From: an uncultured Gammaproteobacteria bacterium
Lineage (GTDB): Bacteria > Patescibacteriota > Microgenomatia > Levybacterales > GWA1-39-11
Direction: 5' to 3'
NCBI GenBank assembly: GCA_964452165.1
Contig: CAYVKP010000004.1
Coordinates: 5,333 to 69,332, forward strand
Length of the DNA stretch: 64,000 bases
The notes under the pieces were generated by a model. It made no database searches, was not told where the DNA came from, and saw only the letters and a program-made list of their open reading frames with translations. Shown here in pieces: positions 3,429 to 41,759 of this stretch. The position numbers and the translations under genes are program-made. Numbering within the stretch: the first letter of the stretch is position 1; each line of letters starts with the position of its first letter.

Positions 3429-4001
3429 TTAATTAGTCACCCCCTCACCTGTTTGCGAAGCGACCGGTGCAGGTGTTGCAATCGGTGCTGCCGCTTTTTT
3501 CTCCTCAATTGCTTTGAGCAATTGAGCGAGTTTCACGATGTTGGCGTTTAAGCCATAAACAAAATTTGAGATAGGTGCATTAAGCGTACCGAGTAATTTT
3601 GCGATCAAGACCTCTTTTGCCGGAAGTTTTGAAAGATCTCCTATCACAGATTCTTCAATAATTGAACCTTCAAAAACTCCGAACTTAATTTTTGGGAGTC
3701 CGTACTTTTTTACAAATGCGGTTAAAATTTTTGCCGTTTTAATTGGGTCAGCATATGAAAATAGTGTTGCGTATGGACCCTGAAGTCGCGCTTTTGCATC
3801 AATGCTTTTTTCCTGCAATGCCAAATTCATGAGAGTATTTTTGATAACTGCAATTTCTGAGTCATTGTCTTGAAGCTCACGACGTGCCTCCTCAAGCTGT
3901 TTGTGTGTAAGGCCTGCGTAGTCAACGAAAAACATGGCGGTAGCTTTTTCTACCTTCTGTTTTGCTAGATCTAAATTTTGTATGTTTTTCTGTGATGGCA
4001 T
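3429..4001 (-). CDS. rplJ: 50S ribosomal protein L10
   Basis: Immediately upstream of rplL; the N-terminus ...[25 protein letters not shown] is L10-like. Confidence 0.85.
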
Positions 4002-4157: not shown

Positions 4158-5702
4158 CTAAAAGATTTTTCCAAGAACCGGAAGTTTCTTATCAAATCCC
4201 GTAAAACGCTCAACATCTGCCCTTGAAATATTCATTAGATCGTCTTCTCTCTCGCCCTCGGGGCAAAATTGCTTATATAAAATAGGGAGAAGGATAGTCA
4301 TAAATTCTCCAATTGTTATTGACTTGGTAGCCTGAATTATGCGCCTCCAATTCTCAGGGTCTTGATAAAGATACATGTCCATGCCACTTGCTGAGACTCT
4401 TTCTCCCCCGGCCTCAACAAAAGCCAGATGGGGCCTAAAGAATACAAAATCATCGGTTACAACATCTTGAGATTCCTCATGAGACTGCGTATCACCGAGT
4501 TCCTCGGTCATCTTCATATAGGCTTCTTTCATATCTGTTAGATATGTCGTTTGACTCGCTCCTCCACCCAAAAGGAGACCGTAGTAGAAGGAGAGAACAA
4601 TGAAGGTTAAAAGAAGACTTGGAATTAGCTCTTTGTTACGAATCGCAGATTCAATTGCCTCAGGTGTCAGAGAAACCGAATATGATCCGTCTCTCGTGAT
4701 TAATTTGTCTCCATCTCTCCCAAGTTGCATTCTGTATCCCTCCTTATTTAATCCCCAGAACAAAAAAGTCCCTGTCTGTTTTTCAGATTTAAAAGCACCA
4801 ATTATTCCATCAAAATATTTCTCTATCAAGGCATGATAATTTTTATCAAAAATAAGCCGACTGATTGGAGTATCTGCGTGAATGTGATAATCGAGCAAAA
4901 GCTCTAGGAGCACCTTCTCTTGCGACAACATAATATAGTTTGGAATTTGGTCACTTGAGAACGACGGGAAAAGCTTCTTCCACAAATGGTAGTTGGTTAC
5001 TGTAAGCTGATCTACGTAATCAGATTCTGCAAATGCATGAGGATTCATATAAACATCTTCTATAAGTGACTTCATTTTCGAAACATTCACCTCAGACTCC
5101 CCTTCTTTTGCAAAAGTATCGATTCTTTTTCTCATCTCCTCTATGTCATCGAATGTATAGGCGGGTGCATACAAAACCATTCGTGGGTCAACACTTCTGC
5201 CAAAAAATGGAAGCTGCTCATCTTCAAGTTTTTCTCCTCTGTATGCATTGAATTGAAATCCTCTTGAGAACGACAAATCGTTATTAAACGATACACCAGA
5301 GCAAGCGAGAATAATTAAATTTCTGAAGCGAGGATCAGCGTTGTTAAACAATGGAACAGAGCTATGAAGACCGGCATTAAGCATATGAGCGGTACCGATT
5401 GGTGCGGTGTGCTCGGCTGTTGAAACGCTATCGTTTCGCTTTAACTGTTTCTCAACCTCATCTGCAAGCGCCGTGCCAAGCAGCCTTGTCACCTCTTTTT
5501 TAATAACTGCGATGATCTCTTTCTTGCGTTCCTGAAAATGCTTGCCGGGGTTTGTCCTATTTTTTTGCTTGACATATGAATAGTAAGACATCTGGCCATA
5601 TCTATCCTTGATTTTTCGAATCTGGGGACGATTCTCCATTATCTTTTCTTCCATGCGATTGAGCATGTCCAAATTAACAGCAGGGGAAGGATTTTGATTC
5701 AT
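4158..5702 (-). CDS. Hypothetical protein (514 aa), orphan
   Basis: Long uninterrupted ORF; no motif recognised. Confidence 0.5.
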   Translation of the reverse strand: MNQNPSPAVNLDMLNRMEEKIMENRPQIRKIKDRYGQMSYYSYVKQKNRTNPGKHFQERKKEIIAVIKKEVTRLLGTALADEVEKQLKRNDSVSTAEHTAPIGTAHMLNAGLHSSVPLFNNADPRFRNLIILACSGVSFNNDLSFSRGFQFNAYRGEKLEDEQLPFFGRSVDPRMVLYAPAYTFDDIEEMRKRIDTFAKEGESEVNVSKMKSLIEDVYMNPHAFAESDYVDQLTVTNYHLWKKLFPSFSSDQIPNYIMLSQEKVLLELLLDYHIHADTPISRLIFDKNYHALIEKYFDGIIGAFKSEKQTGTFLFWGLNKEGYRMQLGRDGDKLITRDGSYSVSLTPEAIESAIRNKELIPSLLLTFIVLSFYYGLLLGGGASQTTYLTDMKEAYMKMTEELGDTQSHEESQDVVTDDFVFFRPHLAFVEAGGERVSASGMDMYLYQDPENWRRIIQATKSITIGEFMTILLPILYKQFCPEGEREDDLMNISRADVERFTGFDKKLPVLGKIF

Positions 5703-5830
5703 ATTTTGTTTTGAGGCCGCTATACTCGCCTTGGAAAGAAGTTGATTTTTCTATGCGATAACGCTTTCGTAGTAAGACAATTATACAGCTTTTAAGGCTA
5801 AAAGTCCATATTGACAACCGGCGTAGTTCT

Positions 5831-5838
5831 TGTATAAT
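5831..5838 (+). promoter_or_regulatory. -10 box TGTATAAT 17 nt upstream of the tRNA-like gene
   Basis: tcTTGTATAATtcatcttcgtagttaat precedes GGAGGGG. Confidence 0.35.
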
Positions 5839-5855
5839 TCATCTTCGTAGTTAAT

Positions 5856-5948
5856 GGAGGGGTCGCATAGCCGGCCCATTGCACCCAACCGTTTTCGGGC
5901 AAGTGTTCCGCTTGACGGAATCCGTACGTTCGAATCGTACCCCCTCCG
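5856..5948 (+). ncRNA. tRNA-like gene (93 nt) with canonical acceptor, D- and T-arms but an aberrant anticodon domain (variant tRNA or tRNA pseudogene)
   Basis: Acceptor GGAGGGG/CCCCTCC (7 bp) with discriminator G. U8. D-stem GCA/TGC with A14 and G18G19 in the loop. T-arm GTACG-TTCGAAT-CGTAC. The 41 nt between the D- and T-arms cannot form a 5-bp stem with a 7-nt loop in the standard register (see findings). Confidence 0.45.
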
Positions 5949-6003
5949 CACGTTTTTACCCTTCACCTTGCCTAAAAATCCCTGACACTGTATTATTAAT
6001 TCT

Positions 6004-7110
6004 ATGCGTATCGCAATTGCCGCCAGTCTACTCAAGGCAATCACCTCTGGGAGCACGGGAGGCACTGAAGCCTTCGCCCATCTTCTTGCCGAAGGCCTAG
6101 TGAAACAGGGAGTTGATACTACGCTTTTTGCAACGTCCGACAGCAAGACAAGCGCAAAACTCGTATCGGTCTGTAGTTCCACCCAAACCACTGATGTATA
6201 TGAGGGAAATGTCGAAATAAGAATGCCCTATCAACTTTTGCAAAGCGCGGAAATCATAAAGCGCGAAAGCGAATTTGATATTATTCACAATAATTATTTT
6301 GGATTTTTTGCCATGACCGCATTCTCACAATTTACAAAGCTTCCCGTTGTCACTACTATGCATAATCATTTCTGGCAATATCCCAACCTAAAAAAGATTC
6401 TGACTGAGACTGTTGTTAAGGGAAAGGATATTGTAGTGTTTCCTTCTCGCGCTTCCCAAAATTACGACAAAGGCCTTTTTGACTCAGAAGTTATTCTTCA
6501 TGGAATAGACATCTCTCCTTTCCCTTTCAATGCAAAATCTGAGGATTATTTTTTATTTTTAAGTAGATTGGTACCTGGCAAGGGAATAAAAGACGCGATG
6601 GACGCAGCAACCGTTGGGAGATTCAAGCTTCTTGTTGCGGGAGGAAAAGCAATTCTACCTGATGACAAGGAATTTATTGAAAAGAATGTAGATCCTTATT
6701 TTTCAGAAAGCATAGTGTATGATGGGGTTCCGGATGATACTAAGCGTCTTGAGCTTTATCAAAACGCAAAAGCCTTAATTTTTCCAACTCGTCTTGAAGA
6801 ACAGTTTGGACTGGTTGCGGCAGAAGCAATGGCTTGCGGAACTCCTGTTATCGCGTACAACCATGGAGCCCTTGCTGAAGTTGTTGAGGATGGAAAAACC
6901 GGGTTTATTGTTGATCCCGATAACGAAGACCGCCCCGGAAAAGGGTCATGGATCATTAAAAAACAGGGCGTTGAGGGAATTGTTGAAGCAGTAAGTAGAA
7001 TTGGTGAGATCGATAGGAATACTTGTCGCAGACACGTCGAGGATAATTTTACGCAGGAAAGAATGATCAAAGACTATATTAAACTTTACGAACGGTTGTT
7101 AAATAAGTAG
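6004..7110 (+). CDS. Glycosyltransferase family 4 (GT1-type fold)
   Basis: C-terminal EQFGLVAAEAMACGTPVIAYNHGALAEVVEDGKTGFIV (E-x7-E motif of GT4). Confidence 0.75.
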   Translation: MRIAIAASLLKAITSGSTGGTEAFAHLLAEGLVKQGVDTTLFATSDSKTSAKLVSVCSSTQTTDVYEGNVEIRMPYQLLQSAEIIKRESEFDIIHNNYFGFFAMTAFSQFTKLPVVTTMHNHFWQYPNLKKILTETVVKGKDIVVFPSRASQNYDKGLFDSEVILHGIDISPFPFNAKSEDYFLFLSRLVPGKGIKDAMDAATVGRFKLLVAGGKAILPDDKEFIEKNVDPYFSESIVYDGVPDDTKRLELYQNAKALIFPTRLEEQFGLVAAEAMACGTPVIAYNHGALAEVVEDGKTGFIVDPDNEDRPGKGSWIIKKQGVEGIVEAVSRIGEIDRNTCRRHVEDNFTQERMIKDYIKLYERLLNK

Positions 7111-9400: not shown

Positions 9401-10549
9401 ATGGTAAGGTTTAAAAAATCAAAAAATCTAAATCCTGTTCTGGGGTGTGTTTTGCTTTTGTTTGTTCTTGTACTCTTGTTCCTATTTCCAAAATTAAAGA
9501 GTGGATTTGTACACTCACCAAGCAGGAATGTTTCAGCTGAATACTCCAACCATAAATTCGCATACACTAAAAGCGGTAAAGTATTTATCTATGATCCGGC
9601 AACTTCCCAAAACACACTAGCGTTTAACAACATCTCCAATGCTTTAGATGTTCAATGGTCTCCTGATGGAAAACTTTTGACCGTAGCAAATGATGCGGTG
9701 TATTTTTACGATCCGCTTTCAAAAACCCAAAAAAGAATTCTTGATAATTTTAAAGGAACTTTATGGGGATGGAAGTCTTCGAAGGAATTTATAACTTTAC
9801 GTGAATTCAATAACAAAGGAGAAATACATGTAATAGGAACAGGTGATGGTCCTCCCGATATGAGTAAAGATAAATACACTGTTGTTTCTTTAGACGGAAA
9901 AACACAGGAGATATCGCTTCAGCAAGAAATTGGTATTGCCCAAAATAAAACAATATTCCCTGATGTACATCACTCATTTAAAGCTATAAAAACTCCCCTA
10001 CCTAGCAATCCAATTCATATCAATCTTTTGGATATAAAGCGCAATACCGAATACCACTTAGACGACACGGTTTCATATATAAAATTATCTCCAGATAACT
10101 CTAGCGTCATTACGCTTGATTCTAGTGGGATGGGTTCGGACGAAATCTGGAAGGTGTGTAAATTTGAAAATATTATTGGAGCAAACAATTGCGAAGAACT
10201 TCCCGCAAGACACCTTACTATCAGACCTAATTACAAATGGATAGACAACCATACCCTAGCGTTTATGAGCCAGGCAGAAAAAAAGGACGAATACACTTTT
10301 AATTCATATGACATACAAACCAAAACGCAAAAAGCCATTGGGAAGCCGTTACATACGGTTTTCCCCGACTCCATAGTTTTTGAAATTGCACCTGATGGAA
10401 AAAACATAGTGTATACCTACGTAGAAACTTATTCTCCCGATGGCCACGAACAGCAGTATTTTATAGCAAAAGTTTCAATTGCGGACGGTGAAGAAACTCT
10501 GCGTATCCCAAATGACCTGACAAGGGTTTCAGATGACTTACCACTTTAA
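9401..10549 (+). CDS. Secreted or anchored beta-propeller (TolB/PD40-like repeats) protein
   Basis: N-terminal TM or signal; repeated WSPDGKLL, LSPDNSSV, IAPDGKNIVYTY, YSPDGHEQ motifs. Confidence 0.5.
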   Translation: MVRFKKSKNLNPVLGCVLLLFVLVLLFLFPKLKSGFVHSPSRNVSAEYSNHKFAYTKSGKVFIYDPATSQNTLAFNNISNALDVQWSPDGKLLTVANDAVYFYDPLSKTQKRILDNFKGTLWGWKSSKEFITLREFNNKGEIHVIGTGDGPPDMSKDKYTVVSLDGKTQEISLQQEIGIAQNKTIFPDVHHSFKAIKTPLPSNPIHINLLDIKRNTEYHLDDTVSYIKLSPDNSSVITLDSSGMGSDEIWKVCKFENIIGANNCEELPARHLTIRPNYKWIDNHTLAFMSQAEKKDEYTFNSYDIQTKTQKAIGKPLHTVFPDSIVFEIAPDGKNIVYTYVETYSPDGHEQQYFIAKVSIADGEETLRIPNDLTRVSDDLPL

Positions 10550-10551
10550 AT

Positions 10552-11709
10552 ATGGAAGAAAATAATCAAAGACCATCGTTAGTTCAAAATCCTTCGATAG
10601 AACAATCTCCTCCTCCTTCTCCTCACACCGAAAAACCAAAACTTAAACTCCCGATTTTGATTGCGGGTGTGGTTGTGGTCTCTATTTTGAGTGTTTACTC
10701 GATAATGCTGCTAGGTAGTAAAAAAGCGGTTGCATGCCCCACTGATGCAAAAGTTTGTCCGGATGGAACTACGGTTGGAAGAATTGGCGCGCATTGCGAA
10801 TTCGGCAAGTGCCCAGTCCCATCAATTTCTCCAGTATCAGCTGATCCAACCGCCAACTGGAAAATCTATTCAAATACCTTGAGCAATTTTTCTCTAAAAT
10901 ACCCAAGGGATTGGGGAGTAGGATATGAATCGGAAGACCTTGTCATGTTACGAAGAGCCGGGGCGCCATTTGTAGAATCACCAATTCAGCTGTGGATTTA
11001 TAAAAATACGGAAGGGCTTGATTTGCTAACGTATCTCAAAACAAAAATATTTCCTGGCCCGCTACCCGTTACTTCCACCGCAGACAAACTTACAAATATC
11101 AAGGTCGGCAGTATGGATGCAGTAAGGGCAGATGGTATTGTGGGCGGAAAAGGTGGGTTTGGTCCCGGAACATTTTTTGGTAATAATAAGGTAGTCGTGG
11201 GAATAGTCCTTGAAGATGCTGCGGGAAATCCGGCAATATTAAACCAAATTATCTCAACCTTTAAATTCACAAATAATAATCAGTTTGGTCCAAGTCCTAC
11301 CGTCACTACAAACACAAAAATCTATTCAAGTCAGTATATGACATTTCGATATCCTCAGCCTTGGAATCCCACTCCTTCACAATCCCTTGGAGGAGCCACT
11401 GCGGAAGCATTAAATCTTGGTATTCCCGGAAACAATGGCGATAATTCGATTGGTTTTTATTCTCCGGATTATTCTACGATACAAATTAATGACGCCGTTT
11501 CCCAAAAACCTATAACTATTGGTGGGAGAAGCGGAATGAAGTATATTCGTAAATCTACACTAAGCAATTCACTGATATATTCGTATGACTATATGACAAC
11601 AGGATATCAAAACACGGGGTCTTTTTCCCTTCACGTAAGCGTCCCCGCTTTAGATACAACTCTTGAAACACAATTAGATAATCTGGTTGCTACAATCGTG
11701 TTTAAATGA
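10552..11709 (+). CDS. MEENNQ/ILSTFKFT family surface protein, paralog 1 (two modules; 4-Cys block)
   Basis: Start MEENNQ, Pro-rich segment, TM helix, the block ACPTDAKVCPDGTTVGRIGAHCEFGKCP, modules PTANWKIYSN..FSLKYPRDW ... QIISTFKFTNN and ...IYSSQYMTFRYPQPW.... Confidence 0.6.
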   Translation: MEENNQRPSLVQNPSIEQSPPPSPHTEKPKLKLPILIAGVVVVSILSVYSIMLLGSKKAVACPTDAKVCPDGTTVGRIGAHCEFGKCPVPSISPVSADPTANWKIYSNTLSNFSLKYPRDWGVGYESEDLVMLRRAGAPFVESPIQLWIYKNTEGLDLLTYLKTKIFPGPLPVTSTADKLTNIKVGSMDAVRADGIVGGKGGFGPGTFFGNNKVVVGIVLEDAAGNPAILNQIISTFKFTNNNQFGPSPTVTTNTKIYSSQYMTFRYPQPWNPTPSQSLGGATAEALNLGIPGNNGDNSIGFYSPDYSTIQINDAVSQKPITIGGRSGMKYIRKSTLSNSLIYSYDYMTTGYQNTGSFSLHVSVPALDTTLETQLDNLVATIVFK

Positions 11710-11712
11710 ACC

Positions 11713-12888
11713 ATGGAAGAAAATAATCAAAACCAAAGCCAGCCGAATCAAGTAACTCCTCCACCTGTTCAGCCGACGGTCGAACAGAATGCTCCTGTCC
11801 CTCCGCCTCTCTCAAAAAAACCAAAACTTAAACTCCTGATTTCAATAGCCGTGGTTTTATTTTTTCTATTTGCTATTGGTAGCGCGTTGGCAGCTTATTT
11901 TTTTGTGCCTCGATGTCCAAACCCTCCAACTCAAAAGGATATATTCGGAGATGTTAGATCCCAGAATTCCATTTGTATTACATGGGGAGATACTACTAAA
12001 ACTGCCAAGAGAAATGGAACCTCTCAAAATCTACGGCCTCAGGTCTCTCACACTCCAACTCCCGATTCCACCGCCAATTGGAAAACATATACAAACGGTC
12101 AGTACGGGTTTTCAATAAAATACCCTGAAACATGGGAGGAAAAACCGGGGCCGTATTTGGATGGGTTTTATGCCCCACCTTCATCCGAATGTCTTCCGCC
12201 TCACGCCTGTGGAGGATCAACTATGGGTTTTAATATCGACGTACGGGATAACCTTTATAAATCCATTCAAGAACACATAAACAAATTCCCCGATATGTAT
12301 AGCCTTACACATTTTGTACCATATAATTCATTCGGCAACAAAGGGTGGATGATAGATAGAAATGGCTTAGGAGCAGGCGCAAATCAGCAAATATTAATTC
12401 CAATTGAGACATCAATAATCAGTGTAACGTGCTCTCTTTGCGATGACAAATTAACTGACCAAATCCTTTCAACCTTCAAAATAATCAATAAAGTATCTAA
12501 TATACAACAGGGGGAAGGCTTTTCTTTCGTACTTCCCTACGGATTTTCTGTCCATCAAAAATCTCCATCTGAAACGTCCTTTATTGGTAAAGGCTATACC
12601 AATCCCACAATTTTTTTAAAAAACCAATCAACCCCATTTATCAAACCTGTGGTTTCCGCAACTCCTGAAAAAGCGGGAGAAATAAGTGGGGTTGAAAAAT
12701 CTACAATAACTGTTGGCGGTAAGAATATAGAAAAATATATCGTCAGCTGCAACGCAGCAGATTGCTATTATGCAAAGGTGTATTTCAATGTTAACGGAAG
12801 ATATTATGAATTTCAAATGGATATTGCTGGAGGAGGCCTTATATTACGACTCGATGACATTATTCACTCTTTGAAATTTACAAATTAA
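11713..12888 (+). CDS. MEENNQ/ILSTFKFT family surface protein, paralog 2
   Basis: MEENNQ, Pro-rich, TM; STANWKTYTNGQYGFSIKYPETW ... QILSTFKIINK ... C-terminal LKFTN. Confidence 0.6.
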   Translation: MEENNQNQSQPNQVTPPPVQPTVEQNAPVPPPLSKKPKLKLLISIAVVLFFLFAIGSALAAYFFVPRCPNPPTQKDIFGDVRSQNSICITWGDTTKTAKRNGTSQNLRPQVSHTPTPDSTANWKTYTNGQYGFSIKYPETWEEKPGPYLDGFYAPPSSECLPPHACGGSTMGFNIDVRDNLYKSIQEHINKFPDMYSLTHFVPYNSFGNKGWMIDRNGLGAGANQQILIPIETSIISVTCSLCDDKLTDQILSTFKIINKVSNIQQGEGFSFVLPYGFSVHQKSPSETSFIGKGYTNPTIFLKNQSTPFIKPVVSATPEKAGEISGVEKSTITVGGKNIEKYIVSCNAADCYYAKVYFNVNGRYYEFQMDIAGGGLILRLDDIIHSLKFTN

Positions 12889-12890
12889 TT

Positions 12891-14108
12891 ATGGAAGAAA
12901 ATAATCAAACACCACCGATTCAAAGTCTACCAGCCGAACAAAACGTTCCAACTGCTTCACCTATTCAAAACGAAATACCGAAATCAAAATTTAGCATTAA
13001 AAAAACTGTGACAATTGTTTTTCTTTTTTTCGTAGGTATTATAATTCTATATATAGGTTTTAATCTGGTTTATTCGGCTTTGGGACTCAGGGGAGATAAT
13101 TACATTCCGCAGCTTAAACCTCTACCTACACAAACGGTATCTCCCACACCGGTCGACCTAACCGCCAACTGGGAAACATACTCTAATTCAGATCTGGGTG
13201 TCACATTTAACTATCCTAAAGGTTATGATATAAAAACAAACAAAGTTGAAGACCCAAAGGATGGTAGCGATGTTTTTTATGCAGGGTTTTTAATACCTAA
13301 AGATAATGCAAGCGTAGTAATAACTAGGGCAAGCCCAAATTTTTTAAGAGAAGTTCCATATAGTAAAACCTCTATCTCAGAGGAAGAATTTTATAACCCC
13401 GCAAATAACTTTTGGTTAAAAGGTAATATAGACAATGGAGCCGAGGGCACAATGTATGAAATACCGCAAATAATAAATGCTGGGGAAAATAAGTTTATAG
13501 TTCAAGCACGTAAGCCAATTAGGCCTTATCAGGGAGTAAAAGGAAATGAATTATACTATAACTATTACCATTGGCTAAGTAGTTCTGATGTTATTACGAT
13601 TGTGCTTTCAACAACTTCAGACAATCCAAAAAACGATGCCGCAAATCAAACTTTTCAACAAATCCTCTCAACCTTCAAATTTACAGAACAAAACCAGGCA
13701 GGCGACACTTCAACCTGGAAAACATTTACCAATAGCTATGCTCATTATTCGTTAAAATACCCTGCAAAAATGAAGCAAAGCTCAAACCAACGCGTAGATT
13801 CTTTTATTGCCGGCTACCAAACAGTCAGAGGCTTAGCAGGAGGACCAAATATGAATATTACATACTGGACAATTGAACAAGCAGCTTCTTTAGCTCTTCC
13901 AATTACCATTCCAACGCCTGGACCAAACAGAATAAAAATTGACGGTGATGATACAAATATATCATTTAGTCAGCTAGCAGGTATAACAATTGGTCCCTTT
14001 AAAAAGGGTGATTTTTATTACCAAATTGACTACTTTGATGATGGTGGTTTTACCTCTGTACCAACTGAACTTGACCAAATCCTCCCAACATTCAAATTCA
14101 CGAATTGA
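12891..14108 (+). CDS. MEENNQ/ILSTFKFT family surface protein, paralog 3 (two modules)
   Basis: MEENNQ, TM; LTANWETYSNSDLGVTFNYPKGY ... QQILSTFKFTEQ; TSTWKTFTNSYAHYSLKYP ... QILPTFKFTN. Confidence 0.6.
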   Translation: MEENNQTPPIQSLPAEQNVPTASPIQNEIPKSKFSIKKTVTIVFLFFVGIIILYIGFNLVYSALGLRGDNYIPQLKPLPTQTVSPTPVDLTANWETYSNSDLGVTFNYPKGYDIKTNKVEDPKDGSDVFYAGFLIPKDNASVVITRASPNFLREVPYSKTSISEEEFYNPANNFWLKGNIDNGAEGTMYEIPQIINAGENKFIVQARKPIRPYQGVKGNELYYNYYHWLSSSDVITIVLSTTSDNPKNDAANQTFQQILSTFKFTEQNQAGDTSTWKTFTNSYAHYSLKYPAKMKQSSNQRVDSFIAGYQTVRGLAGGPNMNITYWTIEQAASLALPITIPTPGPNRIKIDGDDTNISFSQLAGITIGPFKKGDFYYQIDYFDDGGFTSVPTELDQILPTFKFTN

Positions 14109-14110
14109 CT

Positions 14111-14872
14111 ATGGAAGAAAATAATCAAACAAAAAAAATAACTTCACAGGCCGAAGATTTGCATATGGAAGGAAATGCAGCTATTCCTGAAAAACCTAAG
14201 TCAAAATTTAAGCTCTCAATTATTATTGGTACCGTTTTGTTTTTAATACTACTCGTTACGACTTATACAACTTATGCATTCATGAAGGCACAAAAACAAA
14301 CTGCTTGCGCCACTGATGCAAAGGTCTGTCCTGATGGAGCGACCGTTGGAAGAATCGGCGCACATTGCGAATTCGGTAAGTGCCCCGTTCCCTCAATCTC
14401 CCCGACTCCCGCCCCCGTAGAAAATATAGATAATTTATTCTCAGTAACTCTACCTGATGGTTGGACAAAAACAATAGATTATGATCCATATGCTGGAAAG
14501 GACCATAATGTTTATTTTTTATCTCCCGATTTTAAACAGGGTGGACAAGATCAATCAACTGGAACACAAATATCTGTTCACGTAAAGGTGGGAACACCGA
14601 ATGAAGATTTAAAAACTGAAGCGAATAAGCTAGCTACATTTGATCCAAAAGGCTGCACGAGTACAGTGAAAGAGATAACTATCGGAGGCGTGAGAGGATA
14701 CGAAGGCATATGCGATAGAGTTGCGGGTAGATTTAATCCAGACTATAGCAGATACTATTTTTTTAAAAATGGTCAATATGTTTGGTCCATAATGACCTTT
14801 GCATACAAAGCTAATTCGGTATATTTTAATCAAATAGATCAAATCCTCTCAACCTTTAAATTCACGAAGTAA
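14111..14872 (+). CDS. MEENNQ/ILSTFKFT family surface protein, paralog 4 (4-Cys block)
   Basis: The real start is probably the ATG at 14111 (MEENNQ); the track start at 14105 is TTG. TM helix, the block ACATDAKVCPDGATVGRIGAHCEFGKCP, C-terminal QILSTFKFTK. Confidence 0.6.
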   Translation: MEENNQTKKITSQAEDLHMEGNAAIPEKPKSKFKLSIIIGTVLFLILLVTTYTTYAFMKAQKQTACATDAKVCPDGATVGRIGAHCEFGKCPVPSISPTPAPVENIDNLFSVTLPDGWTKTIDYDPYAGKDHNVYFLSPDFKQGGQDQSTGTQISVHVKVGTPNEDLKTEANKLATFDPKGCTSTVKEITIGGVRGYEGICDRVAGRFNPDYSRYYFFKNGQYVWSIMTFAYKANSVYFNQIDQILSTFKFTK

Positions 14873-14873
14873 T

Positions 14874-15905
14874 ATGGAAGAAAATAATTTAAGTCAGCCG
14901 AACCCTGCACCATCTGCTCAAAATCCTCCGGGGCAGAAAGATACCAACGACACAACCAATAAGGTTCTGAGAAGTATACTAGCGATTTGTTGCTTCGCGC
15001 TCGGCTCGCTTCAGTTGGTTATTCCTGCAGTTTTGGCGCTGTTGGTTTTACCTCAATTAATCAAACTTTATCACAACCTAAATCTTAGTATGCCCCCTTC
15101 AGCTTATATAGGTTATGTAATTTGCGCGGTTATCTTTATAGCCGGAATTGTAAATATTTACCTTGGAATAAAAGTGCTTAAGGGCTCGAGATATACCATA
15201 CAAGCGATTATATTTTTAATTGTTTCCTTTTTCTTGATGGGAGCACTTTCTGCCGGAGTTGTCCTTTCAGTTATAAATCCTATTTATAAATTGGTTGGGA
15301 ACATAGATAATTCAAGTGAAAATACCGCTATCTCCTCCACTCCAACACCTGACCCAACCACCAATTGGAAAACGTACTCTAACTCCGAATATAATTTCAG
15401 CTTTAAATATCCACCCATGTACGACTTGAGAATGGAAGGTAAAGCGCCTTATATATACAAAGACAGAGTACTTACAGACGCTGGAGGGTTTGCGGGAGGA
15501 AGTGTTCTAAAAAAGGGGGTGGTAATATTATTTGACGGTTATACAAACAAGGATATTTCGGAAAATGCATTAAAATCTGAATTCGGAACAGAAATATTGA
15601 TACGATCTAAAAGCTTAGGAGGGGAAAATGGTACGCTTGTCTCGATCCCTTCAAATCAATATGAACAAAGATTATTCATTCCTTATGGGAACAATAAAAC
15701 ACTTGCAATAACTCTTTCCTTTGGATTTGAAACTCCCAATGAAGAAAGAAAACTTTATGCAAAAGAGTTTGAACAAATTCTCTCGACCTTCAAATTCACC
15801 GATTCGAACCTGTCTCCTTCCCCAACTTGCACTCCTCGCCCTGCGTGTCTTGATGCTACTCCACGCTGTATGATACCGGAACTTGAAAGTTACTGTAAGA
15901 AATAA
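14874..15905 (+). CDS. MEENNQ/ILSTFKFT family surface protein, paralog 5 (polytopic N-terminus, Cys-rich C-terminal tail)
   Basis: MEENNLSQ, about 4 TM helices, PTTNWKTYSNSEYNFSFKYPPMY ... QILSTFKFTD, plus the tail SPTCTPRPACLDATPRCMIPELESYCKK. Confidence 0.6.
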   Translation: MEENNLSQPNPAPSAQNPPGQKDTNDTTNKVLRSILAICCFALGSLQLVIPAVLALLVLPQLIKLYHNLNLSMPPSAYIGYVICAVIFIAGIVNIYLGIKVLKGSRYTIQAIIFLIVSFFLMGALSAGVVLSVINPIYKLVGNIDNSSENTAISSTPTPDPTTNWKTYSNSEYNFSFKYPPMYDLRMEGKAPYIYKDRVLTDAGGFAGGSVLKKGVVILFDGYTNKDISENALKSEFGTEILIRSKSLGGENGTLVSIPSNQYEQRLFIPYGNNKTLAITLSFGFETPNEERKLYAKEFEQILSTFKFTDSNLSPSPTCTPRPACLDATPRCMIPELESYCKK

Positions 15906-22613: not shown

Positions 22614-22656
22614 GTGAAATATCTTAGGTTAAAACAATTAAATAGTCAATAATTTG

Positions 22657-22728
22657 TCGGGGTGGGGAGAATTGGACTCCCTGCCTCGCGAACCCGAATC
22701 GCGCGGTCTACCGATGACCTACACCCCG
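22657..22728 (-). tRNA. tRNA-Pro (anticodon CGG)
   Basis: Hand-folded from the reverse complement. C1:G72 pair with discriminator A73 (hallmark of bacterial tRNA-Pro). D-stem GGTC/GACC. Anticodon stem CGCGA/TCGCG, loop TTCGGGT (U33, CGG, G37). T-stem GGGAG/CTCCC with an atypical T-loop TCCAATT. Confidence 0.7.
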
Positions 22729-22789: not shown

Positions 22790-22816
22790 TGTTGTTTTCG
22801 TTAACTGTTAAATTTG

Positions 22817-22889
22817 CGTCCCCGAGTGGAGTCGAACCACCAGTCTCGCCCTTAGGACGGGCTTGCTCAATCCATTAAGCTACGGGGAC
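22817..22889 (-). tRNA. tRNA-Arg (anticodon CCU)
   Basis: Hand-folded. Acceptor GTCCCCG/CGGGGAC. D-stem GCTT/GAGC. Anticodon loop GTCCTAA (U33, CCT, A37). T-arm GGTGG-TTCGACT-CCACT. Discriminator G. Confidence 0.75.
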
Positions 22890-41637: not shown

Positions 41638-41708
41638 AGGGGTGTAGTGAAATGGTATCACAGCAGTCTCCAAAACTGCTTTTCAGAGTTCGAATCTCTG
41701 CGCCCCTG
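41638..41708 (+). tRNA. tRNA-Trp (anticodon CCA)
   Basis: Hand-folded. Acceptor AGGGGTG/CGCCCCT (two G-U pairs). U8. D-arm GTGA-AATGGTA-TCAC. Anticodon arm GCAGT-CTCCAAA-ACTGC (U33, CCA, A37). 4-nt variable loop. T-arm CAGAG-TTCGAAT-CTCTG. Discriminator G. Confidence 0.8.
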
Positions 41709-41759
41709 CAAACGGGAATCGAACTTGATTTCCTCGTCGCTTTCTTGAATAATTAAAGC

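What the first reader, a model, noticed from the sequence alone, without database searches (positions are those of the whole stretch)
5829..5950. Promoter-equipped tRNA-like gene with perfect acceptor, D- and T-arms but a non-canonical anticodon region
A TGTATAAT box sits 17 nt upstream of GGAGGGG. The acceptor (GGAGGGG/CCCCTCC), U8, the A14/G18G19 D-loop, the GTACG-TTCGAAT-CGTAC T-arm and the discriminator G are all canonical. The 41 nt between the D-stem and T-stem (ACCCAACCGTTTTCGGGCAAGTGTTCCGCTTGACGGAATCC) cannot form a standard 5-bp stem with a 7-nt loop in register. In fold 1 the segment TTCCG-CTTGA-CGGAA is a long (class II) variable arm and the anticodon arm is unpaired apart from a CCG-TTTT-CGG mini-hairpin. 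In fold 2 a 17-nt arm GTTCC-GCTTGAC-GGAAT is preceded by a 21-nt insertion, carries an UUG anticodon but has C33 instead of U33 and only a 2-nt variable loop. The gene may be a structurally deviant tRNA (CPR genomes are known for odd tRNAs), a tRNA-derived regulatory RNA or a decaying pseudogene. It sits directly upstream of a glycosyltransferase.
Basis: seen in the sequence. Interest (0 to 1): 0.55.

Follow-up and report, generated by a model that had tools for sequence, protein, structure and literature searches.

The report
Anticodon-less serine-tRNA-like RNA gene
A group of ultra-small (CPR) bacteria keeps a small RNA gene that retains every part of a serine tRNA needed to fold and be loaded with serine, but a plain capped hairpin replaces its codon-reading loop; it sits beside a gene for a BshC-like, tRNA-synthetase-fold enzyme, which suggests a tRNA retired from translation to serve that enzyme.

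Summary
Window 5856-5948 (+) encodes a 93-nt RNA with a perfect tRNA acceptor stem, class-II D arm, long variable arm, T arm and G73, behind a 12/12 consensus promoter. It has no 5-bp stem with a 7-nt anticodon loop. ARAGORN calls it 'tRNA-???', and Rfam tRNA, tRNA-Sec and tmRNA models give no hit at E<=10.

It is not a decaying pseudogene. Six further distinct homologues lie in related CPR contigs whose neighbouring proteins are only 36-66% identical. Their acceptor, D and T stems are invariant, the variable arm covaries, and six of the seven have a consensus -10 box. In all seven the anticodon arm is a 3-8 bp hairpin with a short cap: UUUU, UUUA, GUUU, GUAA or AUAUU.

The 5' 28 nt and the acceptor equal those of 89 canonical bacterial tRNA-Ser genes, so serine identity elements are intact. 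The T stem GUACG/CGUAC (A51-U63) is unique to the family.

The RNA lies within 1.4 kb of a no-Pfam 514-aa protein in four different gene orders. AlphaFold models of that protein match BshC, then class I LysRS.

Best reading: a non-decoding tRNA-Ser paralogue, probably serylated and used off the ribosome with this enzyme. The enzyme link and the mechanism are inferred.

The parts
5811..5816 (+). -35 box TTGACA of the RNA gene's own promoter
   Evidence: Promoter scan scores 12/12 with a 16-nt spacer. TTGACA-16-TATAAT also precedes the RNA in L003, L004, L006 and L132.
5833..5838 (+). -10 box TATAAT (preceded by TG), 17 nt before the mature 5' end
   Evidence: Implies a short 5' leader to be removed, presumably by RNase P (inference).
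5856..5948 (+). tRNA-Ser-derived, anticodon-less RNA gene (G1 to discriminator G73; CCA not encoded)
   Evidence: ARAGORN 'tRNA-???'. No Rfam hit. The covariance model R1, built from 7 homologues that include this sequence, scores it 102.9 bits; this match is by construction. Same G73-C-A 3' context as the window's tRNA-Pro, tRNA-Arg and tRNA-Trp.
5856..5862 (+). Acceptor stem 5' strand GGAGGGG, pairing with 5941-5947 CCCCTCC
   Evidence: Invariant in 7/7 homologues. Identical to the acceptor of most of the 89 canonical tRNA-Ser genes in the comparison set; the rest differ only at base 3 and its partner. G1-C72 and G2-C71 are conserved in bacterial tRNA-Ser (PMC9976931).
5865..5882 (+). Class-II D arm: 3-bp stem GCA/TGC with loop TAGCCGGCCCAT (A14, G15, G18G19, A21)
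   Evidence: Stem invariant in 7/7. The string TCGCATAGC..TGC is shared with canonical tRNA-Ser. G15 and C48 (5923) are invariant, matching the Levitt pair.
5884..5899 (+). Replacement of the anticodon arm: CCCAA-CCG-UUUU-CGG-G (mini-hairpin 5889-5898). No 7-nt loop, no U33, no anticodon
   Evidence: Homologues: CCG-UUUA-CGG (L132), CCG-GUUU-CGG (L006), CCCG-AUAUU-CGGG (L003), 8 bp + UUUA (L134), 8 bp + GUAA (L136).
5905..5921 (+). Long variable arm: stem (G)TTCCG / CGGAA(T), loop CTTGA
   Evidence: 3 of 5 pairs show compensatory double changes across the 7 homologues. No shuffle out of 500 reaches the observed covariation score. The size of this arm is the main serine identity element (PMC9976931).
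5924..5940 (+). T arm GTACG-TTCGAAT-CGTAC, with family-specific stem and A51-U63
   Evidence: Invariant except one C-to-U change giving a G-U pair in L136. Never seen among 89 canonical tRNA-Ser genes, which all have G51-C63.
5953..5957 (+). T-run directly after the RNA; likely transcription stop
   Evidence: L132 and L134 have strong hairpin + T-run terminators at the same place, and L006 has a T-run.
4158..5702 (-). Divergent neighbour: 514-aa protein with no Pfam/NCBIfam family and a BshC-like / class-I-aaRS-like fold
   Evidence: No family hits. AlphaFold pLDDT 94.6. Foldseek PDB top hit is BshC 4wbd, E 5.4e-7. Replicated with homologue P0075: BshC E 1.5e-7, then class I LysRS E 9e-3. The RNA lies within 1.4 kb of this gene in 7 of 8 loci of its clade.
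5780..5808 (-). Promoter-like site (TGGACT-17-TATAAT) for the BshC-like gene, back-to-back with the RNA promoter
   Evidence: scoring 10/12. This is a consensus match only.
6004..7110 (+). Downstream GT4 glycosyltransferase
   Evidence: Pfam Glycos_transf_1 / Glyco_transf_4. Best NCBIfam hit is BshA, but at 63 bits against a cutoff of 274. Best PDB relatives are small-molecule GT4 enzymes. It is a conserved neighbour in 5 of 7 RNA-bearing loci.

Best explanation
The locus encodes an independently transcribed, functional paralogue of tRNA-Ser that has left decoding. The argument has three layers, with decreasing support.

**Layer 1 (shown).** The RNA keeps everything needed to fold as an L-shaped class-II tRNA. 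It also keeps what is needed for processing at both ends and for recognition by seryl-tRNA synthetase:
- G1-C72, G2-C71, C11-G24 and G73;
- the 3-bp D stem with an enlarged D loop;
- a long variable arm;
- the G15-C48, U8-A14, G18G19 and T-loop tertiary nucleotides.

A simple hairpin with a 4-5-nt cap replaces the anticodon stem-loop. That hairpin cannot present an anticodon.

**Layer 2 (inferred from genome context).** The RNA works together with the adjacent 514-aa enzyme, which has a BshC-like, class-I-synthetase-like fold. In most members a GT4 glycosyltransferase is also adjacent.

**Layer 3 (inferred mechanism).**
1. SerRS, which does not read the anticodon, charges the RNA with serine.
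2. The missing anticodon keeps the charged RNA out of translation. The family-specific T stem (A51-U63) may also weaken EF-Tu binding.
3. The BshC-like enzyme uses the seryl-RNA as its activated amino-acid donor. It transfers the aminoacyl group to an acceptor, possibly an amino-sugar conjugate made by the GT4 enzyme. This parallels the BshA-BshC logic of bacillithiol synthesis.

Relatives outside the clade pair or fuse the same enzyme with an ATP-grasp amino-acid ligase instead of the RNA.
For: **Layer 1: a functional, non-decoding tRNA-Ser derivative.**
- ARAGORN finds a cloverleaf without a valid anticodon.
- Rfam tRNA-clan models fail at E<=10 for three members.
- Seven distinct homologues were found.
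- The acceptor, D and T stems are invariant, and the variable arm has 3 of 5 covarying pairs.
- RNA identity averages 0.82, against 0.55 for the flanks.
- TTGACA-16-TATAAT promoters precede the RNA in 5 of 7 loci, and terminators or T-runs follow it.
- Every member has a short-capped hairpin in place of the anticodon loop.
- 89 canonical tRNA-Ser genes share the first 16 nt (GGNGGGGTCGCATAGC), the D stem, the acceptor and G73. Unlike the family, they all have 7-nt loops with T33/A37 and Ser anticodons.
- Serine identity is anticodon-independent and rests on the variable arm, G73 and the first acceptor pairs (PMC9976931).

**Layer 2: link to the enzyme.**
- The RNA is within 1.4 kb of the protein gene in 7 of 8 loci of a monophyletic clade.
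- It keeps that proximity in four different gene orders: between the protein and GT4; downstream of GT4; beside the protein without GT4; and separated by alr.
- Two outgroup loci carry a canonical tRNA-Ser 23 nt and about 1 kb from the gene.
- None of 120 unrelated tRNA-Ser loci encodes this protein.

**Layer 3: mechanism.**
- Two independent AlphaFold models (pLDDT 94-95) have BshC as their only strong PDB match, followed by class I LysRS or ArgRS.
- The BshC reaction has never been reconstituted and is thought to need an unidentified activated amino acid (PMC5790435).
- BshA is a GT4 enzyme (PMC5790435), and the neighbouring GT4's best NCBIfam hit is BshA.
- Outgroup homologues are fused or adjacent to ATP-grasp amino-acid ligases.
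- A51-U63 costs about 1.1 kcal/mol of EF-Tu binding relative to G51-C63 (PMC3239215, Table 2).
Against: - There is no expression, processing or aminoacylation data.
- Only seven distinct RNA sequences were obtained, because one collection scan was wasted and the other was saturated by canonical tRNA-Ser.
- The RNA-protein association could be inherited synteny in small, slowly rearranging genomes. Three of twelve protein loci have no tRNA-Ser-type gene within 10 kb.
- The BshC similarity is structural only, with TM 0.41-0.45. No BshC HMM matches any of 53 family members.
- The GT4 enzyme scores far below the BshA cutoff, and no deacetylase was seen among the 20 window proteins scanned.
- The predicted EF-Tu effect is modest.
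- The T loop keeps the canonical TTCRAAT, unlike the staphylococcal non-proteogenic tRNAs.
- In the window's subgroup the replacement hairpin has only 3 bp, with an unexplained conserved CCC 5' of it.
- Serine as the transferred residue does not fit a thiol product.
Confidence: 0.45

Rival explanations
1. The RNA is a regulatory or decoy tRNA-like RNA. It is functional and non-decoding, but it acts by binding rather than by carrying an amino acid. Possible roles: titrating SerRS, a tRNA-modifying or processing enzyme, or a tRNA-targeting toxin; or signalling, like the B. cereus pseudo-tRNA tRNA-Other. Its position next to the BshC-like gene would then be inherited synteny.
For: - The RNA is conserved and has its own promoter.
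- There is a precedent for a non-translating pseudo-tRNA with cell-wall and antibiotic-resistance phenotypes (PMC3399842).
- Three of twelve protein loci lack any tRNA-Ser-type neighbour.
- No direct evidence of charging exists.
Against: - The complete serine identity set and an intact acceptor end with G73 are invariant. A pure decoy would not need all of them.
- Proximity to the protein survives four different rearrangements.
- The hairpin cap is unconstrained, so it is not a sequence-specific antisense element.
Confidence: 0.22
2. The RNA and the protein form a dedicated synthetase-like pair. The BshC-like protein has a class-I-aaRS fold and itself acylates or otherwise modifies the 3' end of this RNA. 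SerRS would not be involved. The invariant acceptor and T stem would then be this protein's identity elements.
For: - The protein's structural matches after BshC are class I LysRS and ArgRS.
- The family-specific invariant T stem GUACG/CGUAC is not needed for SerRS.
- The family has a glycine-rich conserved motif, LGGGxxQ. BshC was crystallised with ADP (title of entry 4wbd).
Against: - The acceptor stem, G73 and D arm are identical to those of canonical tRNA-Ser, not distinct from them. SerRS would therefore charge the RNA anyway.
- No HIGH or KMSKS-type family signature was detected by any HMM.
- Outgroup homologues work with ATP-grasp partners and without a special RNA.
Confidence: 0.15
3. 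The RNA is a decaying pseudogene of a tRNA-Ser gene that once stood next to this protein gene.
For: - Outgroup loci have a canonical tRNA-Ser at that place.
- The anticodon arm of the window RNA looks like a damaged CCCGA-CUCGAAA-UCGGG arm of tRNA-Ser(CGA).
Against: - Seven lineages, whose neighbouring proteins are only 36-66% identical, keep 52 of 94 positions invariant.
- All stems except the anticodon arm are intact, and the variable arm shows compensatory changes.
- Promoters and terminators are kept.
- The flanks have diverged to background.
- The L134 and L136 arms are perfect 8-bp hairpins, which is not decay.
Confidence: 0.04
4. The RNA is an unusual but decoding tRNA. Examples would be a frameshift suppressor, a tRNA with a 6- or 8-nt loop, one whose loop is restored by splicing or editing, or a tRNA-Sec or allo-tRNA type.
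For: ARAGORN proposes 2-, 3- or 4-base 'anticodons' (gt, gat, gtaa) in different members.
Against: - Loop size (4-5 nt in the best folds) and sequence differ between members. There is no U33 or R37 and no shared triplet.
- The arm is 16-20 nt long, which leaves no room for an intron.
- The acceptor/T geometry is 7/5, not the 8/5, 9/4, 8/4 or 9/3 of tRNA-Sec and allo-tRNAs.
- Rfam tRNA and tRNA-Sec models do not match.
Confidence: 0.03
5. The RNA is a cis-acting processing or punctuation element for the glycosyltransferase mRNA: a tRNA-like structure cleaved by RNase P or RNase Z.
For: It lies 55 nt upstream of the GT4 gene and in the same orientation in the window, L003 and L006.
Against: - It lies downstream of GT4 in L004 and L136, and there is no GT4 gene in L132 or L134.
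- Strong terminators follow it in L132 and L134.
- A separate promoter-like site lies between the RNA and GT4 in the window.
Confidence: 0.03

Closest known systems
Canonical bacterial tRNA-Ser (class II tRNA, Rfam RF00005)
   Same: - Identical acceptor stem GGAGGGG/CCCCTCC and G73.
- The same 3-bp D stem and D-loop string.
- A long variable arm and the T loop TTCRAAT.
- No encoded CCA, like the other tRNAs of the window.
   Different: - It has no 5-bp stem with a 7-nt anticodon loop and no anticodon.
- Its T stem is GUACG/CGUAC with A51-U63, whereas all 89 canonical genes have G51-C63.
- It scores below any reportable threshold with the Rfam tRNA model.
Non-proteogenic tRNA-Gly isoacceptors NP1-3 of Staphylococcus (donors for FmhB/FemA/FemB; PMC7826273)
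   Same: - It is a paralogue of a normal isoacceptor that keeps its synthetase identity.
- It carries lineage-specific changes in the T stem, the region that governs EF-Tu binding.
- It is proposed here to feed a non-ribosomal transferase.
   Different: - The staphylococcal tRNAs still have an anticodon arm and a UCC anticodon, and they deviate in the T loop (UGC/UGU). This RNA keeps the T loop and has lost the anticodon loop entirely.
- The partner enzyme is not Fem/GNAT-type but BshC-like.
- No biochemistry exists for this RNA.
tRNA-Other, the pseudo-tRNA of Bacillus cereus (PMC3399842)
   Same: It is a tRNA-derived gene that does not function in translation yet is retained and has a cellular role.
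   Different: - tRNA-Other is a species-level oddity flanking a genomic island and acts through regulation.
- This RNA is conserved across a deep CPR clade, keeps a full aminoacylation identity set, and has a constant enzyme neighbour.
tRNA-Sec
   Same: It has a long variable arm and G73. It is charged by SerRS, and changes to the tRNA body keep it away from EF-Tu (PMC9976931).
   Different: tRNA-Sec has 8/5 (bacterial) acceptor/T geometry, a 6-bp D stem and a UCA anticodon, and it decodes UGA. None of this applies here.
tRNA-like domain of tmRNA and viral tRNA-like structures
   Same: Both have a chargeable acceptor-T module without a functional anticodon.
   Different: - Those are parts of larger RNAs, have alanine, valine, histidine or tyrosine identities, and depend on pseudoknots or SmpB.
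- This RNA is a free-standing 93-nt cloverleaf with a normal D arm. The Rfam tmRNA model does not match it.
BshC (bacillithiol cysteine-adding enzyme), compared with the neighbouring protein
   Same: - BshC is the only strong PDB structural match for two family members.
- The neighbouring protein is associated with a GT4 glycosyltransferase, as BshC is with BshA (PMC5790435).
   Different: - There is no detectable sequence similarity, and no Pfam or NCBIfam BshC hit in 53 members.
- TM-score is only 0.41-0.45.
- No BshB-type deacetylase was seen nearby.
- The organisms are CPR bacteria, which a 2025 RefSeq survey of the validly published phyla does not list among those reported to carry the BSH pathway (PMC12719100).

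Membership tests
tRNA (Rfam RF00005) / decoding tRNA-Ser | 7-bp acceptor stem, D arm with A14/G18G19, and T arm with the TPsiC-type loop | tested here: met
   The sequence shows all of these. ARAGORN finds a cloverleaf. These elements are invariant in 7 homologues.
tRNA (Rfam RF00005) / decoding tRNA-Ser | 5-bp anticodon stem with a 7-nt loop, U33, a purine at 37 and a serine anticodon | tested here: not met
   ARAGORN reports a 6-nt loop with a 2-base 'anticodon'. Folds give 3-8-bp hairpins with 4-5-nt caps of varying sequence. All 89 canonical relatives have the feature.
tRNA (Rfam RF00005) / decoding tRNA-Ser | Score at or above the Rfam gathering threshold (29 bits) | tested here: not met
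   No tRNA-clan match at E<=10 for the window, L134 or L136. The window's Pro, Arg and Trp tRNAs score 50-64 bits.
tRNA (Rfam RF00005) / decoding tRNA-Ser | Serine identity set for SerRS: long variable arm, G73, G1-C72, G2-C71 and class-II core | tested here: met
   Present and invariant at the sequence level (identity rules from PMC9976931). Actual serylation cannot be tested with these tools.
Non-proteogenic tRNA (Staphylococcus tRNA-Gly NP type) | Paralogue of a canonical isoacceptor that retains synthetase identity | tested here: met
Non-proteogenic tRNA (Staphylococcus tRNA-Gly NP type) | T-stem or T-loop changes that lower EF-Tu affinity | tested here: inconclusive
   A51-U63 replaces the G51-C63 seen in 89 of 89 canonical genes. 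The predicted cost is +1.1 kcal/mol (PMC3239215, Table 2). The T loop is canonical, and binding was not measured.
Non-proteogenic tRNA (Staphylococcus tRNA-Gly NP type) | Aminoacyl form is the preferred donor of a non-ribosomal transferase | not testable with these tools
   The only support is gene proximity to a BshC-like protein.
tRNA-Sec / allo-tRNA | 8/5, 9/4, 8/4 or 9/3 acceptor/T-stem geometry, and a UCA or other anticodon | tested here: not met
   The geometry is 7/5 and there is no anticodon loop. No Rfam tRNA-Sec hit.
tmRNA | tRNA-like domain plus a tag-encoding ORF and pseudoknots | tested here: not met
   ARAGORN and Rfam find no tmRNA at this locus. The RNA is 93 nt long.
BshC family (neighbouring 514-aa protein) | BshC fold: Rossmann core with class-I-aaRS-like connective elements | tested here: met
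   Foldseek matches 4wbd at E 5.4e-7 and 1.5e-7, probability 1.00, for two models with pLDDT 94-95. Next come class I LysRS and ArgRS. TM-score is only 0.41-0.45.
BshC family (neighbouring 514-aa protein) | Match to the BshC sequence models (Pfam / NCBIfam) | tested here: not met
   No hit at E<=10 in 53 members or at E<=1 in NCBIfam. No PDB sequence hit.
BshC family (neighbouring 514-aa protein) | Co-occurrence with BshA (GT4) and a BshB deacetylase | tested here: inconclusive
   A GT4 neighbour is present in 5 of 7 loci. Its best NCBIfam hit is BshA, but at 63-123 bits against a cutoff of 274. No deacetylase was found among the 20 window proteins scanned.

The most novel reading that the evidence does not exclude
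A tRNA has been permanently retired from the genetic code to become a dedicated aminoacyl carrier for a BshC-family enzyme. The anticodon-less seryl-RNA would be the 'activated amino acid' substrate of the class-I-synthetase-fold ligase. Together with the GT4 enzyme, that ligase would build an amino-acid-sugar conjugate in CPR bacteria. By extension, BshC-family enzymes in general would be aminoacyl-tRNA-dependent transferases. That would explain why the bacillithiol BshC reaction has resisted reconstitution with free cysteine and ATP.
Probability: 0.18. Interest if true: 0.9.

Novelty: new variant of a known kind. Interest (0 to 1): 0.72.

Why it matters
tRNAs that leave translation are very rare. 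The production of extra non-proteogenic tRNAs for peptidoglycan synthesis has so far been detected only in Staphylococcus aureus and S. epidermidis (PMC7826273), and those tRNAs still carry an anticodon.

This RNA is a free-standing cloverleaf that keeps a complete aminoacylation identity but has replaced the anticodon loop with a plain hairpin. It is conserved over a deep bacterial clade. If the reading is right, it would be the most extreme known case of a tRNA turned into a pure amino-acid carrier or tRNA mimic.

There are also practical consequences:
- tRNA finders mislabel it (as tRNA-???, as tRNA-Ile, or not at all), and gene callers place ORFs over it.
- It must not be counted in the tRNA-Ser complement or used in codon-usage inferences for these genomes.
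- Its constant neighbour belongs to a large protein family without any annotation (1260 clusters at 50% identity). That family's only structural relative is BshC, whose reaction is a long-standing unsolved problem (PMC5790435).

The pairing offers a concrete hypothesis that can be tested in vitro: aminoacyl-tRNA as the missing activated substrate.

Tried and rejected
- **Genome scan.** My pattern had one N too many after GTTCRAATC. No survey of GTDB genomes was therefore possible.
- **Metagenome scan.** The corrected pattern was too permissive. These loci still served as the comparison set.
- **Viral contigs.** The family-specific T-arm pattern and the protein profile found nothing.
- **Sequence searches for the 514-aa protein.** Pfam, NCBIfam and PDB sequence searches found nothing. 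The best 150 of 1260 representative hits were all same-family proteins, so the distant tail, where BshC might appear, could not be seen.
- **Cluster look-up.** It gave no organism names.
- **Literature.** Searches for a tRNA-like RNA in CPR/Patescibacteria, and for BshC with tRNA, found no prior description.
- **Intron, permuted or split tRNA.** Considered and rejected because the arm is only 16-20 nt long.
- **Minus-strand gene.** Rejected because the promoter, the T-loop orientation and the T-run all fit the plus strand. The weak minus-strand Rfam hit (Plastid-psbl-rps4, E 0.18) is noise.
- **ORFs overlapping the RNA.** ORFs 5781-6191(-) and 5879-6100(+) were treated as spurious.
Full report
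**1. The observation**

Window 5856-5948 (+) reads:

GGAGGGG-UC-GCA-UAGCCGGCCCAU-UGC-A-CCCAACCGUUUUCGGG-CAAGUGUUCCGCUUGACGGAAUCC-GUACG-UUCGAAU-CGUAC-CCCCUCC-G.

The scan adds a perfect -35 box, giving TTGACA-16-TATAAT with 12 of 12 matches at 5811-5838. A run of five T follows the gene at 5953-5957.

ARAGORN reports 'tRNA-???' with a two-base 'anticodon' in a six-base loop. Rfam finds the window's tRNA-Pro, tRNA-Arg and tRNA-Trp at 50-64 bits. It finds nothing from the tRNA clan at this locus, even at E<=10 in a 401-nt search.

**2. It is a serine tRNA by descent**

A metagenome scan with a pattern built from the two ends of the RNA returned 120 loci. Nearly all are ordinary bacterial tRNA-Ser genes. 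They share:
- the acceptor stem GGAGGGG/CCCCTCC (in most; a minority differ at base 3 and its partner);
- the discriminator G73;
- the string UCGCAUAGC...UGC of a three-base-pair class-II D stem.

Among 89 distinct such genes, all have seven-base loops with T33 and A37 and the anticodons GCU, GGA, UGA, CGA (plus a few AGA and one ACU). All have G51-C63 in the T stem.

The window RNA is therefore a tRNA-Ser paralogue that differs in two places:
- The anticodon arm is replaced.
- The T stem is GUACG/CGUAC with A51-U63, a sequence never seen in the 89 canonical genes.

The tertiary-interaction nucleotides U8, A14, G15 and C48, G18G19, A21, and T54 to A58 are all present and invariant. Like the three bona fide tRNA genes of the window, it does not encode CCA. 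Its discriminator is followed by C-A, as theirs are.

**3. It is conserved, so it is not a pseudogene**

The divergent neighbour (4158-5702, minus strand, 514 aa) has homologues in CPR/Patescibacteria metagenome bins. The named ones are Levybacteria, Magasanikbacteria and Liptonbacteria. I fetched the DNA around twelve of these proteins.

Six further distinct copies of the RNA appeared, beside proteins 36-66% identical to the window's:

| Locus | Coordinates |
|---|---|
| L003 | 3661-3755 |
| L004 | 2653-2744 |
| L006 | 1491-1586 |
| L132 | 9739-9830 |
| L134 | 1714-1804 |
| L136 | 11619-11710 |

Conservation across the seven sequences:
- 52 of 94 positions are invariant.
- The acceptor and D stems never vary. 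The T stem varies once, C to U, keeping a G-U pair.
- Three of five variable-arm pairs show compensatory double changes. No shuffle out of 500 reaches the observed covariation score.
- Pairwise identity of the RNA averages 0.82, against 0.55 for flanking DNA. The latter is about what this scoring gives for unrelated AT-rich sequence.

TTGACA-16-TATAAT precedes the RNA in five of seven loci. Strong hairpin + T-run terminators (L132, L134) or bare T-runs (window, L006) follow it.

On a neighbour-joining tree of the proteins, the seven RNA-bearing loci form one clade. This points to a single origin followed by long maintenance.

**4. It cannot decode**

Each homologue's middle segment folds into two hairpins. 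The second is the long variable arm, with 4-8 bp. The first stands where the anticodon arm should be:

| Locus | First hairpin |
|---|---|
| window, L004 | CCG-UUUU-CGG |
| L132 | CCG-UUUA-CGG |
| L006 | CCG-GUUU-CGG |
| L003 | CCCG-AUAUU-CGGG |
| L134 | CCAGUUUA-UUUA-UAAACUGG |
| L136 | CGCAAAGC-GUAA-GUUUUGUG (a GNRA cap) |

Cap size and sequence are unconstrained. There is no U33 or R37 and no shared triplet. The segment is 16-20 nt long, which leaves no room for an intron.

The 8-bp + tetraloop versions are about as long as a normal anticodon arm, so the L shape is probably kept while the reading head is gone. ARAGORN's differing calls (gt, gat, gtaa, or no gene at all) reflect this. Rfam also fails on L134 and L136.

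In the window's subgroup the hairpin has only 3 bp and is preceded by a conserved CCC. That CCC could alternatively pair with the 3' GGG. I cannot explain this detail.

**5. What it keeps tells what it can still do**

According to the identity literature:
- Serine identity is independent of the anticodon.
- It relies primarily on the size of the variable arm.
- It is helped by G73 and the first acceptor pairs. G1-C72 and G2-C71 are conserved in bacterial tRNA-Ser, and G73 also repels LeuRS and TyrRS (PMC9976931).

All of these features are invariant here. Charging by SerRS is therefore the natural expectation, but it remains an inference.

The family-specific A51-U63 is predicted to weaken EF-Tu binding by about 1.1 kcal/mol relative to G51-C63 (PMC3239215, Table 2). 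The effect is modest, and it runs in the same direction as in the staphylococcal non-proteogenic tRNA-Gly species (PMC7826273).

**6. The constant neighbour**

The RNA lies within 1.4 kb of the 514-aa protein gene in seven of eight loci of the clade, in four different arrangements:
- between the protein gene and the GT4 gene, divergent from the former (window, L003, L006);
- downstream of GT4 (L004, and L136 on the other side of the protein gene);
- beside the protein with no GT4 (L132);
- separated from it by alanine racemase (L134).

Two outgroup loci carry a canonical tRNA-Ser instead:
- tRNA-Ser(GCU) ends 23 nt before the protein gene's start codon in a Magasanikbacteria genome (L139/L140).
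- tRNA-Ser(CGA) lies about 1 kb downstream in L137.

Three loci (L135, L141, L142) have none within 10 kb. Conversely, none of the 120 unrelated tRNA-Ser loci (0.72 Mb) encodes this protein. I read this as suggestive of a functional link, with a probability of roughly one half. Conserved synteny in small genomes remains a fair alternative.

**7. What the neighbour is**

The protein has no Pfam, NCBIfam or PDB sequence match, singly or across 53 members. It nevertheless belongs to a large family of 1260 clusters at 50% identity.

AlphaFold models are confident:

| Protein modelled | pLDDT | pTM |
|---|---|---|
| window protein | 94.6 | 0.93 |
| P0075 (32% identical) | 94.3 | 0.94 |

Foldseek against the PDB gives one strong hit for each model: BshC of Bacillus subtilis (4wbd).

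| Model | BshC E-value | Probability | TM-score | Next hit |
|---|---|---|---|---|
| window protein | 5.4e-7 | 1.00 | 0.41 | ArgRS, E 0.9 |
| P0075 | 1.5e-7 | 1.00 | 0.45 | class I LysRS, E 9e-3, probability 0.96 |

BshC is the putative cysteine-adding enzyme of bacillithiol synthesis. [quoted passage not shown] Its pathway partner BshA is a GT4 glycosyltransferase (same paper).

The GT4 next to the RNA is a conserved neighbour in five of seven loci. Its best NCBIfam hit is BshA, though far below the cutoff. Its closest solved relatives are small-molecule glycosyltransferases.

In the outgroup clades the BshC-like gene is fused to, or adjacent to, an ATP-grasp ligase resembling those of cyanophycin synthetase, GshAB and RimK. 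No such gene is in the window.

**8. Synthesis**

- **Shown:** this is a conserved, separately transcribed tRNA-Ser derivative that retains its folding and serine-identity features but has no anticodon loop.
- **Inferred from context:** it works with the BshC-like enzyme.
- **Inferred mechanism:** SerRS charges it, and its missing anticodon and altered T stem keep it out of translation. The BshC-like enzyme then uses the seryl-RNA as its activated donor, in a pathway that also uses the GT4 enzyme. In sister clades an ATP-grasp ligase may supply the activation step instead.

Rivals, in order of weight:
- a binding-only decoy or regulator, with incidental synteny;
- the BshC-like protein acting as a private synthetase for this RNA;
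- pseudogene, odd decoder, and mRNA punctuation element, all of which the comparative data largely exclude.

**9. Novelty and limits**

No Rfam family matches the RNA, and full-text searches found no description of such an RNA in CPR bacteria or of a tRNA link for BshC.

It is a new variant of a known kind: tRNA paralogues or mimics outside translation. It is more extreme than the staphylococcal non-proteogenic tRNAs.

Limits:
- only seven sequences were obtained;
- there is no expression or charging data;
- one collection scan was lost to my own pattern error;
- the BshC link is structural only;
- I could not check whether the same genomes keep a full set of normal tRNA-Ser genes.

Noticed in passing
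window 4158-5702 (-), and proteins P0087, P0150, P0163, P0165; loci L137 8801-9991, L139 11418-12605, L142 11517-12617: The unannotated BshC-like family is large: 1260 clusters at 50% identity. In clades outside the RNA-bearing one it is repeatedly fused to, or adjacent to, an ATP-grasp amino-acid ligase resembling those of cyanophycin synthetase, GshAB and RimK. This is a two-gene module of unknown product.
   Followed up: partly
L139/L140 9889-9978 (+); L137 12579-12664 (+) and 2096-2185 (+): Canonical tRNA-Ser genes sit next to the BshC-like gene in two outgroup lineages. tRNA-Ser(GCU) ends 23 nt before the start codon in L139/L140, and tRNA-Ser(CGA) lies about 1 kb downstream in L137. This hints that the association with tRNA-Ser predates the loss of the anticodon.
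   Followed up: partly
window 5780-5838: Two promoter-like sites lie back to back, with their -35 boxes 2 bp apart. One faces the BshC-like gene (TGGACT-17-TATAAT, minus strand) and one faces the RNA (TTGACA-16-TATAAT, plus strand). This arrangement would allow co-regulation.
   Followed up: no
window 9401-15905 (+): Six tandem ORFs of 253-405 aa lie in the same orientation. Several have weak PsbP_2 or beta-propeller Pfam hits, and at least two of them (10552-11709 and 14111-14872) are similar to each other. This is probably an array of secreted or cell-surface proteins.
   Followed up: no
window 22656-22728, 22816-22889, 41638-41709, 5856-5948: None of the tRNA-type genes in the window encodes CCA. 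In each, the discriminator is followed by C-A (A). All therefore depend on a CCA-adding enzyme.
   Followed up: partly
L003 3660-3755; L132 9673-9810; L006, L132, L134: These are annotation pitfalls. ARAGORN labels the L003 copy tRNA-Ile(GAU) and misses the L006, L132 and L134 copies altogether. The JGI gene caller placed a 45-aa ORF over the RNA in L132. In the window, ORFs 5781-6191(-) and 5879-6100(+) overlap the RNA.
   Followed up: yes
L007-L011, L026, L061, L082: Archaeal tRNA-Leu genes from Nitrososphaerales, Nanoarchaeia and Methanosarcinales share the D-arm string GGGGTCGCATAGC with bacterial tRNA-Ser. They carry extra sequence, probably an intron, 3' of the anticodon. ARAGORN in bacterial mode misses most of them.
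   Followed up: no
L132 15122-15194 and 19374-19447; L135 3964-4037 and 5002-5075: A tRNA-Ile(GAU) and tRNA-Cys(GCA) pair recurs a few kb from the BshC-like gene in two loci. This is probably plain synteny, but a tRNA-Cys gene near a BshC-like gene is worth a second look.
   Followed up: no
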